Origin: Escherichia coli
Lineage (GTDB): Bacteria; Pseudomonadota; Gammaproteobacteria; Enterobacterales; Enterobacteriaceae
DNA: 64,000 nt
Reading direction: 5' to 3' (one strand)
Assembly (NCBI RefSeq): GCF_001677475.2
Contig: NZ_CP015229.1
In this document: positions 12,043 through 15,913 of the stretch, piece by piece
Position numbering within the stretch: position 1 is the first letter of the stretch
Layout of the letters: every line of letters begins with the position of its first letter
The notes under the pieces: model-generated
The model's input: the letters and a program-made list of their open reading frames with translations, nothing else
Databases searched by the model: none
What the model was told of the DNA's origin: nothing
Made by a program: the position numbers and the translations under genes

Positions 12043-12501
12043 ATGACAATCACGGACCTGGTACTGATTCTTTTCATCGCCGCACTCCTGGCCTTCGCGA
12101 TCTACGATCAGTTCATCATGCCCCGCCGTAACGGCCCCACTCTGCTGGCAATTCCTTTGCTCCGGCGTGGTCGCATCGATAGCGTTATATTCGTCGGATT
12201 GATTGTCATTCTTATCTATAACAACGTCACGAATCATGGCGCGCTAATAACAACATGGTTATTAAGTGCACTGGCTCTGATGGGTTTTTATATATTCTGG
12301 ATCCGCGTTCCGAAGATCATCTTTAAACAAAAAGGTTTTTTCTTCGCCAATGTCTGGATTGAATATAGCCGAATCAAAGCGATGAACTTGTCGGAAGATG
12401 GCGTGTTGGTGATGCAATTAGAACAGCGTCGGCTGTTAATCCGCGTTCGAAATATCGACGATCTAGAAAAAATTTATAAGCTTCTCGTTTCAACTCAATA
12501 A
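12043..12501 (+). CDS. yobD: UPF0266 inner-membrane protein YobD
   Basis: 152-aa hydrophobic [27 protein letters not shown]. Confidence 0.8.
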
Positions 12502-12698
12502 GTTATGAATTTAGCCAAAGCTATGTTTAGTGTATTTTTAATAATCAGACATAGCTTAGGCTATATTACCTCTTCCCTTATTTGTTATTTATTTTAACGT
12601 TTCATTGATATATAAATCTAAATGAAAATCGTTATCAATAAAGCAATGAAATAATATATTCCAACAGTTGTTTATGAGACGACAATAACTCAGTCCGC

Positions 12699-12720
12699 CT
12701 GGCGCCGATTATTCTGGCCG
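12699..12720. repeat. Left terminal inverted repeat of the IS21-family element (ctggcgccgattattctggccg)
   Basis: Hand alignment: 18 of 22 positions match the reverse complement of 15035-15056. Confidence 0.5.
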
Positions 12721-12765
12721 GTTTTGTAACCTGAGTGTCATTTACATGATCCAACAGGAAATGGC

Positions 12766-14265
12766 GTGACGCTCAATACTTCTCAGGTCAGTTACTATAT
12801 GACTCAGCGTAAGAAAGGTATAACTCAGCATATCTCGGCCATGAAGGCTGGTATCTCAGTCCGTTCTGGTCGTCGGATCGAAAAAGGAGAGTGGGCAAAA
12901 AACAGTGTTCGGCACTGGCGCACACGCAAAGATCCTCTGGAAGCTGTGTGGGACAGCATGCTTGTTCCTCTGTTGAAAGAGAGGCCGGCTCTGACACCAA
13001 CAACTCTACTGGAGATGCTACAGGATAAATATCCCGGCCAGTACCCCAACAGCCTTCGAAGAACAATGCAACGGCGGGTTCGCGAATGGAAACTACAGTA
13101 TGGTACAGAGCAGGAGGTCATGTTCCGCCAGCAACATCAGCCCGGCCTGCGAGGCCTGTCGGACTTTACTGAACTGAAAGGTGTAGTTGTCACCATCGCC
13201 GGTAAGTTGTTGGCGCATAAGTTGTATCACTTCCGTCTGGAATGGAGCCACTGGAGCTGGATGCGGGTTGTTCTGGGTGGTGAGAGCTTCTCTGCTCTGG
13301 CTGAAGGCCTGCAGGAAGCCCTCGGACAACTGGGCGGAGTGCCGGTAGAACATAAAACGGACAGCCTGAGGGCAGCATGGAAACAACAGGGCGAAGATGG
13401 ACGCCGCGAGCTGACTGAGCGTTATGCTACTCTCTGTCAGCACTACGGAATGCAGGGCGTACACAATAATGCCGGTCGGGGCCACGAAAATGGCTCGGTT
13501 GAAAGTGCCCACGGACATCTGAAAAGGCGTATCTGTCAGGCGCTGATACTGCGGGGCAGTAACGACTTCAGCACCATAGAAGAATATCAGGCCTTCATCA
13601 CTCAGCAGGTTATGCGGCACAACCGTAACAATCAGGATCTGGTCAAGGAAGAACGTCTTCATCTGAAACCGCTGCCGCTTCGTCGCAGTGCTGACTATGA
13701 TGAGCTGACTGTGAGGGTTAGTCGCAGCAGTACCATCAATGTGAAGCACGTCGTCTACAGCGTACCTTCCCGGCTTGTAGGTCAACTGTTACGGGTCAGG
13801 TTATGGGACGATCGTCTGAGCTGTTACGTTGGCAGCAGCGAGGTCATGAGCTGCCCTCGCGTCAGACCAGAAAAAGGGAAGACGCGGGCCCGTCGTATCG
13901 ACTTCCGACATGTGATCGACAGTCTGGCAAAAAAGCCCGGTGCGTTCTGCCATGCAACGCTGAGAAATGACATCCTGCCGGACGATGAATGGCGGAGGCT
14001 GTGGCGTCGCTTATGTAATCATCTGGAGCCCGATATGGCAGGAAGGCTGATGGTACATGCCCTGAAACTGGCTGCAGGATACGACGATATCTCAGTCGTG
14101 GCAAAAGGTATGGAGCAGATGCTGAATACCCCGGGAAACGTGGATCTGCACCGGCTGATGCGCTTCCTGGGTATAAAAGAAAAGGCGTTGCCGGTAGTCA
14201 ATGTGATACAGCATAACCTGAGCAGTTATGAGCAACTACTGCGTGGCAAGGGAGGTTCGCAGTGA
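12766..14265 (+). CDS. istA: IS21-family transposase IstA
   Basis: 499-aa ORF from GTG at 12766 (alternative in-frame ATG at 12799); N-terminal HTH-like region, large catalytic domain; stop overlaps istB start. Confidence 0.8.
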   Translation: MTLNTSQVSYYMTQRKKGITQHISAMKAGISVRSGRRIEKGEWAKNSVRHWRTRKDPLEAVWDSMLVPLLKERPALTPTTLLEMLQDKYPGQYPNSLRRTMQRRVREWKLQYGTEQEVMFRQQHQPGLRGLSDFTELKGVVVTIAGKLLAHKLYHFRLEWSHWSWMRVVLGGESFSALAEGLQEALGQLGGVPVEHKTDSLRAAWKQQGEDGRRELTERYATLCQHYGMQGVHNNAGRGHENGSVESAHGHLKRRICQALILRGSNDFSTIEEYQAFITQQVMRHNRNNQDLVKEERLHLKPLPLRRSADYDELTVRVSRSSTINVKHVVYSVPSRLVGQLLRVRLWDDRLSCYVGSSEVMSCPRVRPEKGKTRARRIDFRHVIDSLAKKPGAFCHATLRNDILPDDEWRRLWRRLCNHLEPDMAGRLMVHALKLAAGYDDISVVAKGMEQMLNTPGNVDLHRLMRFLGIKEKALPVVNVIQHNLSSYEQLLRGKGGSQ

Positions 14266-15017
14266 GCAATATCCATCACCTTGAACATAGCCTGCGTAAA
14301 CTACGCCTGACACGAGTTGGAGCTGAATGGCACGCTCTGGAAAAACGAGCGCTGGCAGAAGGCTGGACACCATCGCGCTATCTTCTGACGCTATGCAATG
14401 AAGAACTCCTGTGGCGCGAGAGTGAAAAACTGCGTCGTTATAAAAAGGAGGCCCGGTTGCCAGTTGCCAAAACGCTGAGCGAATACGACTTCAGTCAGGT
14501 GCCGGAACTGAATGGAGCTCAGTTCCGGCAACTCTGTGAAACGACAGACTGGGTTGATGCAGGAGAAAACGTTCTGCTGTTCGGAGCCAGCGGGTTGGGG
14601 AAAAGCCATCTGGCGGCAGCGATCGTGGATGGCGTAGTAGGTCAGGGCTACCGGGCCCGGTTCTACAGCGCAGGAGAGCTGTTGCAGGAACTACGTAAAG
14701 CCAGAGCTCAGTTGAAACTGAATGAGCTGCTACTGAAACTGGATCGCTACCGGGTGATAGTGGTGGATGATCTTGGCTATGTCAAACGCGATAGTGCCGA
14801 AACGGGTGTGCTGTTCGAGTTAATAGCGCATCGCTATGAACGTGGGAGCCTGGTGATAACCAGTAACCATCCGTTCAGCATGTGGGGCAGCATCTTCGTG
14901 GATGAGACTATGGCGGTGGCTGCGGCAGACAGGCTGCTCCATCACGGATATATGTTCGAACTGAAAGGGGAAAGCTACAGGAAAAAGACAGCGAAGGCAG
15001 TAACAAGCGCGACTTGA
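14262..15017 (+). CDS. istB: IS21-family helper ATPase IstB
   Basis: 251-aa ORF with Walker A (LLFGASGLGKSHLAAAI) and Walker B-like (VIVVDDLGY) motifs; translationally coupled to istA. Confidence 0.85.
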   Translation: MSNIHHLEHSLRKLRLTRVGAEWHALEKRALAEGWTPSRYLLTLCNEELLWRESEKLRRYKKEARLPVAKTLSEYDFSQVPELNGAQFRQLCETTDWVDAGENVLLFGASGLGKSHLAAAIVDGVVGQGYRARFYSAGELLQELRKARAQLKLNELLLKLDRYRVIVVDDLGYVKRDSAETGVLFELIAHRYERGSLVITSNHPFSMWGSIFVDETMAVAAADRLLHHGYMFELKGESYRKKTAKAVTSAT

Positions 15018-15034
15018 TGTCGCCCTGAAGGGTG

Positions 15035-15056
15035 CGGCCAGTATAGTTGGCGCGAG
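15035..15056. repeat. Right terminal inverted repeat of the IS21-family element
   Basis: Reverse complement ctcgcgccaactatactggccg pairs with 12699-12720 (18/22). Confidence 0.5.
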
Positions 15057-15121
15057 TCGGCAAAACTAGTTGACGTCTAATAGTTGTTTTATATTCTCAA
15101 AATATGTTAAGGTTGCGCCCT

Positions 15122-15346
15122 CATTTGGGGAGTAGCCGATTTCCAGATTCCGGAAATGTACGTGTCAACATACTCGTTGCAAAACGTGGCACGTACGGAC
15201 TGAACACTTTCAGTCAGGCGAGACCATATGCACATCAATCGCTATGCCTGCATGAACGCGAAAACCCGTCGCGGCTTGTTGTTCATGTATGCATGTTTGC
15301 TGGGGGCGATGATGTGTTTTATGGATACCCCGGTCAGGACGTTGTC
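15122..15346 (+). promoter_or_regulatory. mntP 5' leader with predicted yybP-ykoY manganese riboswitch (extent approximate)
   Basis: Long untranslated leader before the mntP ATG beginning with ggggagtagcc near the expected transcript start; the E. coli mntP leader is known to hold an Mn riboswitch; structure not folded here. Confidence 0.5.
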
Positions 15347-15913
15347 ATGAATATCACTGCTACTGTTCTTCTTGCGTTTGGTATGTCGATGGATGCATTT
15401 GCTGCATCAATCGGTAAAGGTGCCACCCTCCATAAACCGAAATTTTCTGAAGCATTGCGAACCGGCCTTATTTTTGGTGCCGTCGAAACCCTGACACCGC
15501 TGATCGGCTGGGGAATGGGCATGTTAGCCAGCCGGTTTGTCCTTGAATGGAATCACTGGATTGCGTTTGTGCTGCTGATATTCCTCGGCGGGCGAATGAT
15601 TATTGAGGGTTTTCGTGGCGCAGATGATGAAGATGAAGAGCCGCGCCGTCGGCACGGTTTCTGGCTACTGGTAACCACCGCGATTGCCACCAGCCTGGAT
15701 GCCATGGCTGTGGGTGTTGGTCTTGCTTTCCTTCAGGTCAACATTATCGCGACCGCATTGGCCATTGGTTGTGCAACCTTGATTATGTCGACATTAGGGA
15801 TGATGGTTGGTCGCTTTATCGGCTCAATTATTGGGAAAAAAGCGGAAATTCTCGGCGGGCTAGTGCTGATCGGCATCGGCGTCCAGATCCTCTGGACGCA
15901 CTTCCACGGTTAA
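15347..15913 (+). CDS. mntP: Manganese efflux pump MntP
   Basis: 188-aa membrane protein [25 protein letters not shown]; ORF-track N-terminal extension (15104) rejected. Confidence 0.85.

What the first reader, a model, noticed from the sequence alone, without database searches (positions are those of the whole stretch)
12691..15064. IS termini are imperfect and no clean target-site duplication is visible
Hand alignment gives a 22-bp inverted repeat (12699-12720 vs 15035-15056) with 4 mismatches, extendable by 3 bp. The flanks (cagtccgc left, tcggcaaa right) share only a degenerate AGTC-like motif, not a perfect 4-8 bp direct repeat. This could mean the true ends differ slightly from my call, the insertion is old, or it arrived with an adjacent deletion or rearrangement.
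Basis: seen in the sequence. Interest (0 to 1): 0.3.

Follow-up and report, generated by a model that had tools for sequence, protein, structure and literature searches.

The report
Intact ISEc10 insertion upstream of mntP

Summary
It is only the inner pair of repeats of a longer, two-part terminal inverted repeat.

**True ends.** Eleven other copies, including relatives only 86-88% identical, place the ends at 12673 and 15082 (2410 bp, TATGAGACG...CGTCTAATA).

**Target-site duplication.** A perfect 6-bp direct repeat, GTTGTT, flanks those ends (12667-12672 / 15083-15088). Removing the IS and one repeat copy restores the yobD-mntP intergenic sequence found in 5419 of 5426 complete E. coli genomes. 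It matches strain 104 without gaps, with 3 mismatches in 800 bp. There is no deletion or rearrangement.

**Identity and state.** The element is ISEc10 of the IS21 family. istA and istB are intact, and it is 99.8% identical to copies in other strains. This points to a recent simple insertion, not an old or damaged one.

**Side observation.** The IS lies about 35-40 bp upstream of the mntP transcription start. It moves two MntR operator-like palindromes 2.4 kb away and brings in an outward-facing TTGACG -35 hexamer. mntP regulation may therefore be altered, but this is untested.

The parts
12673..15082 (+). ISEc10 (IS21 family), complete 2410-bp copy
   Evidence: It is 99.0-99.8% identical to PGAP-annotated 'IS21-like element ISEc10 family' copies. 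Eight E. coli copies share exactly these end bases while their flanks differ. Salmonella and Klebsiella relatives at 86-88% identity align from position 1 to 2410 exactly.
12667..12672 (.). Left copy of the 6-bp target-site duplication GTTGTT
   Evidence: The empty site in K-12 and strain 104 carries one copy.
15083..15088 (.). Right copy of the 6-bp target-site duplication GTTGTT
12673..12720 (+). Left terminal inverted repeat (48 nt, 34/48 match to the right end)
   Evidence: (I1)
15035..15082 (-). Right terminal inverted repeat
   Evidence: (I1)
12680..12698 (+). L1, outer 19-bp repeat of the left end (CGACAATAACTCAGTCCGC)
   Evidence: It lies 23 bp from L2 and matches it at 12 of 19 positions. 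The L1/L2 layout with 23-bp spacing is the IS21-family TIR architecture (PMC10122671).
12703..12721 (+).
   Evidence: It matches R2 at 15 of 19 positions.
15034..15052 (-).
15057..15075 (-). R1, outer repeat of the right end
   Evidence: R1 and R2 match at 13 of 19 positions with a 23-bp offset. This was the only off-diagonal repeat detected within the ends.
12766..14265 (+). istA, 499-aa IS21-family transposase, intact
   Evidence: ORF. NCBIfam NF033546 scores 226.4 bits against a cut-off of 160. Pfam Mu-transpos_C_2 matches. The coordinates agree with RefSeq istA in other copies.
14262..15017 (+). istB, 251-aa AAA+ helper ATPase, intact, overlapping the istA stop codon (GTGA)
   Evidence: ORF. 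Pfam IstB_IS21 gives E=6.8e-62. NCBIfam NF038214 scores 266.7 bits against a cut-off of 200.
15070..15075 (+). Outward-facing -35-like hexamer TTGACG inside the right end, 7 bp from the tip
   Evidence: It is conserved in relatives 86-88% identical. The IS21 family is reported to carry a -35 box in the right TIR (PMC10122671).
15092..15097 (+). -10-like TATTCT in chromosomal DNA, 16 bp downstream of the IS -35 (candidate hybrid promoter; consensus match only)
   Evidence: No such promoter-like site exists in the empty K-12 site.
12509..12526 (.). MntR-operator-like palindrome ATTTAGCCAAAGCTATGT, now 2.4 kb further from mntP
   Evidence: It has 2 mismatches to the core of the K-12 mntH promoter palindrome ACATAGCAAAGGCTATGT. 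This and the next site are the only matches with 2 or fewer mismatches in the 64-kb window.
12549..12566 (.). MntR-operator-like palindrome ACATAGCTTAGGCTATAT
   Evidence: 1 mismatch
15125..15215 (+). Mn2+ riboswitch aptamer (yybP-ykoY) in the mntP leader, untouched by the insertion
   Evidence: Rfam RF00080 scores 45.2 bits (gathering score 45), E=3.5e-11.
15347..15913 (+). mntP (manganese exporter), 264 bp downstream of the IS
   Evidence: Pfam Mntp gives E=1.7e-55. RefSeq annotation of the homologous locus agrees.
12043..12501 (+). yobD (DUF986), 171 bp upstream of the IS

Best explanation
A complete, apparently active copy of the known insertion sequence ISEc10 (IS21 family) made a simple insertion into the yobD-mntP intergenic region of an E. 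coli chromosome.

The element spans 12673-15082 (2410 bp). It encodes the IstA transposase and the IstB AAA+ helper. Each end carries two IstA-site-like repeats 23 bp apart (L1/L2 and R1/R2). Staggered cleavage of the target produced a 6-bp duplication, GTTGTT.

It therefore looked for a target duplication 26 bp inside each true end, where none can exist.

Shown here: the ends, the duplication, the intact ORFs, the empty site and the family assignment. Inferred: that L1/L2/R1/R2 are IstA binding sites, and that the copy is transposition-competent.
For: (1) Identity. The region is 99.0-99.8% identical to annotated ISEc10 copies and differs from the nearest copies at 4-6 positions in 2410.

(2) Ends. 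Eight E. coli copies at different sites share the first base T (12673) and the last base A (15082), and their flanks diverge immediately outside these bases. Relatives 86-88% identical on Salmonella and Klebsiella plasmids align exactly from position 1 to 2410 and keep the outer ~16 bp (left) and ~27 bp (right) unchanged.

(3) Target duplication. GTTGTT abuts both ends. Other copies carry perfect duplications of 5 bp (2 copies), 6 bp (5 copies) and 7 bp (1 copy) at the same end positions.

(4) Empty site. K-12 and strain 104 read ...TTCCAACAGTTGTTTTATATTCTC.... Deleting 12673-15088 gives an 800-bp ungapped match to strain 104 with 3 mismatches. The reconstructed empty site is present in 5419 of 5426 genomes.

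(5) Proteins. IstA and IstB score above the NCBIfam IS21 cut-offs. IstB matches Pfam IstB_IS21.

(6) End architecture. The two repeats per end at 23-bp spacing match the published IS21-family TIR layout. In that study IstA needed both repeats for integration (PMC10122671).
Against: - The ISfinder reference entry for ISEc10 could not be consulted, so the name rests on PGAP annotation of near-identical copies.
- Similarity among L1, L2, R1 and R2 is modest: 10-15 matches of 19. A match of 12 of 19 sits only in roughly the top 0.15% of background 19-mers within the IS.
- The termini end in 3'-TA, not the 3'-CA described for IS5376.
- One paper gives ISEc10 as 2,530 bp (PMC8764528), which disagrees with the 2410 bp measured here in every full-length copy apart from two carrying 1-bp and 4-bp internal deletions.
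- No transposition assay was possible.
Confidence: 0.96

Rival explanations
1. One reading: the insertion is old and its ends have decayed, or it arrived together with an adjacent deletion or rearrangement, so no target duplication survives.
For: The terminal inverted repeat is imperfect, 34 of 48 matches. Some other ISEc10 copies do lack a clean duplication: L005 lies next to another IS21-like element, L012 has none, and L007 reads TTATG/TTATA.
Against: The same imperfect ends occur base for base in all other copies, so the imperfection is by design. A perfect 6-bp repeat is present. The flanks are collinear with the empty site, with no missing or extra bases. Both ORFs are intact, and the copy is 99.8% identical to others.
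Confidence: 0.01
2. The element is 2408 bp (12674-15081) and the duplication is the 8-bp repeat AGTTGTTT (12666-12673 / 15082-15089). A 7-bp version with one end shifted is also conceivable.
For: In this window alone an 8-bp perfect direct repeat exists, and 6-, 7- and 8-bp parsings all fit the empty site. Eight bp lies within the range I recall for the IS21 family (memory).
Against: At eight other insertion sites the T at the left tip and the A at the right tip stay constant while the flanks differ. Moving them into the flank destroys the direct repeats there; for example L001 would read TTTTCT vs ATTTTC. Diverged relatives also begin with T and end with A.
Confidence: 0.03

Closest known systems
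ISEc10 (IS21 family) copies in E. coli chromosomes and plasmids, e.g. NZ_AP042571.1 and NZ_CP042296.1
   Same: Same 2410-bp length and same end sequences. The same istA (1500 bp) and istB (756 bp) overlap by 4 bp. The window copy is 99.8% identical, with 4-6 differences. The 6-bp target duplication is the commonest length among copies.
   Different: The insertion site, yobD-mntP, is absent from all 5426 complete E. coli genomes searched. One istB substitution is not seen in the 8 compared copies: C at IS position 2265, giving Leu instead of Ile. This exact IstB sequence is not on record in the protein collection.
IS21 / IS5376 prototypes of the IS21 family (PMC10122671)
   Same: Two-gene istA-istB operon. 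TIRs are built of two direct repeats per end, 23 bp apart. There is a -35-like box in the right end and a -10-like box in the left end. Short target duplications are made.
   Different: - IstA is 499 aa here against about 400 aa for IS5376, and it has no sequence-level match to any PDB chain.
- The termini end in 3'-TA rather than the 3'-CA reported for IS5376.
- The duplication length varies from 5 to 7 bp among ISEc10 copies, against a fixed 5 bp reported for IS5376 in vitro.
Reported ISEc10 insertions next to genes (lpp, the afa promoter, the ampC promoter)
   Same: An insertion in a regulatory region close to a promoter.
   Different: The reported effects go both ways. lpp expression fell 6-10 fold (PMC7482066). 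afa promoter activity was reduced (PMC8764528). AmpC was overproduced (Haldorsen 2008, as cited in PMC7482066). The direction of any effect on mntP therefore cannot be predicted, and nothing was measured here.

Membership tests
IS21 family | Two consecutive same-strand genes: an istA DDE transposase followed by an istB AAA+ helper ATPase | tested here: met
   istA is 12766-14265 and istB is 14262-15017, overlapping by 4 bp. IstA scores 226.4 bits on NF033546 (cut-off 160). IstB scores 266.7 bits on NF038214 (cut-off 200). Pfam IstB_IS21 gives E=6.8e-62.
IS21 family | Terminal inverted repeats composed of at least two direct repeats per end (L1/L2, R1/R2), about 23 bp apart | tested here: met
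   The R1/R2 repeat at a 23-bp offset was the only off-diagonal repeat detected within the ends. The four 19-mers share the consensus CGnCAAnTAnTCTGGCCGn with 10-15 of 19 pairwise matches. The architecture and spacing are as described in PMC10122671. Statistical support is modest.
IS21 family | Short target-site duplication (5 bp for IS5376 per PMC10122671; 4-8 bp for the family from memory) | tested here: met
   The 6-bp GTTGTT repeat abuts both ends, with a single copy in the empty site.
IS21 family | A -35 box in the right TIR and a -10 box in the left TIR, forming a promoter when two copies abut | tested here: inconclusive
   TTGACG lies 7 bp from the right tip. GACAAT occupies IS positions 9-14. 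A 2-3-bp junction would space them 17-18 bp apart (sequence; my inference). No expression data are available.
ISEc10 (named element) | Near-identity over the full length to the reference element (from memory, ISfinder treats >95% DNA identity as the same IS) | tested here: met
   98.3-99.8% identity over 2410 bp to copies that PGAP names 'IS21-like element ISEc10 family'. This is an indirect test.
ISEc10 (named element) | Ends identical to the curated ISfinder entry | not testable with these tools
   ISfinder is not available here. The ends were inferred from 11 independent copies instead.

The most novel reading that the evidence does not exclude
Because of where it landed, this ISEc10 copy may make a natural regulatory variant of the manganese exporter gene mntP.

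Its right tip lies about 35-40 bp upstream of the reported mntP transcription start. The 5'UTR is 229 nt according to PMC11647493.

The insertion moves both MntR-operator-like palindromes 2.4 kb away. It also moves the 25%-GC upstream tract, the kind of AT-rich DNA through which H-NS might act at this promoter (location inferred).

It places an outward TTGACG -35 hexamer 16 bp from a TATTCT -10-like hexamer. istAB also reads towards mntP with no terminator-like site in between.

mntP transcription would then be uncoupled from MntR, Fur and H-NS, and controlled only by the riboswitch and Rho.
Probability: 0.4. Interest if true: 0.35.

Novelty: already known. Interest (0 to 1): 0.12.

Why it matters
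For the scan, this closes the finding. The element is a textbook simple insertion of a catalogued IS. The 'missing' duplication came from calling the ends on the inner repeats of a two-part IS21-type terminus.

The practical lesson concerns IS21-family elements in general. The most conspicuous inverted repeat can be L2/R2, about 23-26 bp inside the true tip. Ends should therefore be set by comparing several copies or an empty site.

The only biological point of possible consequence is the position at the mntP promoter. mntP is tightly controlled, and its overexpression is toxic (PMC11647493). An insertion that separates the promoter from its MntR sites could change manganese tolerance in this strain. 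That would be a strain-level curiosity, not a new mechanism.

Tried and rejected
- **Junction search.** I searched the left junction (34 nt) and then the IS left end (34 nt) in the GTDB species-representative genomes. Both gave 0 hits, so the source genome and further copies could not be obtained that way.
- **Exact-protein look-up.** I looked up IstB twice, once as translated DNA and once with an M start. It is not on record.
- **PDB search.** A sequence search with IstA returned no hit at E<=0.01.
- **Rfam.** The gathering scan of 12400-15500 found nothing. The riboswitch appeared only in a shorter stretch searched with laxer filters, at 45.2 bits against a threshold of 45.
- **Primary mntP papers.** Waters 2011, Dambach 2015 and Waters 2020 are not held. 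The transcription start therefore rests on the '229-nt 5'UTR' statement in PMC11647493 and on my memory of 225 nt.
- **8-bp and 7-bp duplication parsings.** Considered and rejected on the evidence of other copies.
- **A larger composite element.** Considered and rejected, because the flanks are collinear with the empty site.
- My first empty-site script kept both duplication copies and failed to match. It was corrected.

Full report
**What is at the coordinates.** The stretch 12691-15064 lies inside a two-gene mobile element between yobD (12043-12501) and mntP (15347-15913). The ORF list shows a 499-aa ORF (12766-14265) followed by a 251-aa ORF (14262-15017) on the + strand, overlapping by 4 bp.
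- The second ORF matches Pfam IstB_IS21 (E=6.8e-62), and the first matches Mu-transpos_C_2.
- NCBIfam places them above the curated cut-offs for 'IS21 family transposase' (226.4 bits, cut-off 160) and 'IS21-like element helper ATPase IstB' (266.7 bits, cut-off 200).
- Megablast against 5426 complete E. coli genomes finds many copies annotated 'IS21-like element ISEc10 family', at 98.3-99.8% identity.

**Checking the observation.** 12699-12720 against the reverse complement of 15035-15056 has 4 mismatches in 22 positions, and 5 in 25 with the 3-bp extension. It is not the terminus, though.
- The repeat finder extends the pairing to 48 nt, 12673-12720 vs 15035-15082, with 34 of 48 matches.
- The BLAST alignments to other copies start at query 473/474 and end at 2883, which is window 12672/12673 to 15082.
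They could never have held a target duplication.

**Fixing the ends.** I fetched eight E. coli copies at different chromosomal and plasmid sites and lined up their junctions.
- All begin TATGAGACGACAATAAC and end AACTAGTTGACGTCTAATA, and the sequence outside those bases differs at every site.
- A search of the plasmid collection with 12673-15082 returned full-length relatives at only 88% (Salmonella) and 86% (Klebsiella) identity. Their alignments run exactly from position 1 to 2410, and their outermost bases are unchanged.
- The element is therefore 12673-15082, 2410 bp.

**The target-site duplication.** GTTGTT occurs immediately before 12673 (12667-12672) and immediately after 15082 (15083-15088).
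- Within this window alone the repeat can be read as 8 bp (AGTTGTTT, 12666-12673 / 15082-15089). This is because the chromosomal A before the repeat equals the last base of the IS, and the chromosomal T after it equals the first base.
- The other copies settle the question. With T...A as part of the IS, they carry perfect duplications of 5 bp (L001, L004), 6 bp (L002, L006, L008, L011/L014, L013) and 7 bp (L003). With T...A assigned to the flank, those repeats disappear.
- Three copies (L005, L007, L012) lack a clean duplication. Such cases do exist, but this is not one of them.

**The empty site.** K-12 MG1655 and strain 104 read ...AATAATATATTCCAACAGTTGTTTTATATTCTCAAAATATG... with one GTTGTT.
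- Deleting 12673-15088 from the window gives an 800-bp ungapped match to strain 104 with 3 mismatches. K-12 matches equally well up to an unrelated indel about 180 bp downstream of the junction, in the mntP leader.
- The reconstructed empty site covers at least 80% of its length in 5419 of 5426 genomes. No genome has the occupied site.
- There is thus no adjacent deletion or rearrangement. The insertion is specific to this strain or lineage. The neighbouring 24 kb is at most 99.4% identical to any complete E. coli genome, so the host is an E. coli-type chromosome with no close relative in that set.

Each end is two-part.
- Scanning the first 100 nt of each end for internal repeats found one signal only, a direct repeat within the right end at a 23-bp offset.
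- The same offset in the left end gives 12 of 19 matches.
- The four 19-mers are L1 12680-12698, L2 12703-12721, R2 15034-15052 and R1 15057-15075. They share the consensus CGnCAAnTAnTCTGGCCGn.
- The cryo-EM and biochemical study of an IS21-family transposase states that family TIRs are composed of two direct repeats (L1/L2, R1/R2) separated by 23 bp, and that IstA needs both for integration (PMC10122671).
The outer pair, L1/R1, matches at only 10 of 19 positions and is easy to miss by eye.
- That these repeats bind IstA in ISEc10 is an inference from the family.

**State of the copy.** Both ORFs are full length, with the same coordinates as the RefSeq genes in other copies. The copy differs from its nearest relatives at 4-6 positions. 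One difference is not seen in the eight compared copies: C at IS position 2265, giving Leu rather than Ile in IstB. With a perfect duplication as well, this looks like a recent insertion of a functional element. Activity itself was not tested.

**Context worth recording.**
- The Mn2+ riboswitch aptamer of the mntP leader is at 15125-15215 (RF00080, 45.2 bits).
- PMC11647493 gives the mntP 5'UTR as 229 nt, and I recall 225 nt from the primary papers, which are not held. Either value puts the right tip of the IS about 35-40 bp upstream of the transcription start.
- Two palindromes at 12509-12526 and 12549-12566 differ by 2 and 1 bases from the core of the K-12 mntH promoter palindrome ACATAGCAAAGGCTATGT. 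That palindrome is, from memory, the MntR operator of mntH. These two sites are the only such matches in the 64-kb window. They lay 107-164 bp upstream of the insertion point and are now 2.4 kb further from mntP.
- A review summarises that MntR and Fur activate mntP by relieving H-NS repression (PMC8632737). The upstream tract is 25% GC, against 53% for the IS.
- The IS brings an outward TTGACG 7 bp from its right tip. With chromosomal TATTCT at 16-bp spacing this scores as promoter-like. No such site exists in the empty locus. This hexamer is presumably the family's right-end -35 box (PMC10122671).
- istAB reads towards mntP, and no terminator-like site lies between them on the + strand.
- Published ISEc10 insertions near genes have lowered expression (lpp and afa) or raised it (ampC, as cited). 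I therefore do not predict a direction.

**Verdict.** The element is an already known IS behaving in the textbook way. Interest is low. The mntP promoter position is a modest lead for anyone working on this strain.

Noticed in passing
window 12509-12526 and 12549-12566: Two MntR-operator-like palindromes upstream of mntP are separated from the mntP core promoter and riboswitch by the 2.4-kb IS. They are the only matches with 2 or fewer mismatches to the mntH promoter palindrome core in the 64-kb window.
   Followed up: partly
window 15070-15097: An IS-borne outward -35 (TTGACG) and a chromosomal TATTCT at 16-bp spacing form a promoter-like site aimed at mntP. It is absent from the empty K-12 locus. 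This is a consensus match only.
   Followed up: partly
window 12673-12675 and 15080-15082: ISEc10 termini read 5'-TAT...ATA-3', so both transferred strands end in 3'-TA. IS5376 of the same family is described with a 3'-CA. The TA tips are conserved in relatives 86-88% identical (L011, L012).
   Followed up: partly
L001-L014 junctions: The target duplication length of ISEc10 varies between copies: 5 bp in 2, 6 bp in 6 (counting the window) and 7 bp in 1. Seven of the nine duplications start with G. Three further copies have no clean duplication (L005, L007, L012).
   Followed up: partly
window 14078-14097: An internal 20-mer in the 3' part of istA (GATACGACGATATCTCAGTC) matches the left tip (12676-12695) at 17 of 20 positions. 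It could be chance or an internal IstA site.
   Followed up: no
window 14937: The IstB codon here is CTC (Leu), where all eight compared ISEc10 copies have ATC (Ile). This exact IstB sequence is not on record in the large protein collection.
   Followed up: partly
window 15125-15215: The mntP Mn riboswitch was missed by the Rfam gathering-threshold scan of a 3.1-kb stretch. It was found at 45.2 bits (threshold 45) when only 341 bases were searched, which shows how the speed filters behave for this borderline family member.
   Followed up: yes
window 15104-15913: The ORF list shows a 269-aa ATG ORF that is only an upstream in-frame extension of mntP through its riboswitch leader. The real start is 15347. 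RefSeq also annotates a 40-aa hypothetical ORF inside the leader in strain 104 (L009 713-835).
   Followed up: no
window 15267 region vs L010: K-12 differs from the window and from strain 104 by a 1-bp indel in the mntP leader, downstream of the aptamer. It is unrelated to the IS.
   Followed up: no
PMC8764528: That paper gives ISEc10 as a 2,530-bp insertion. Here every full-length copy measures 2410 bp, apart from two with 1-bp and 4-bp internal deletions. The discrepancy is unexplained.
   Followed up: no
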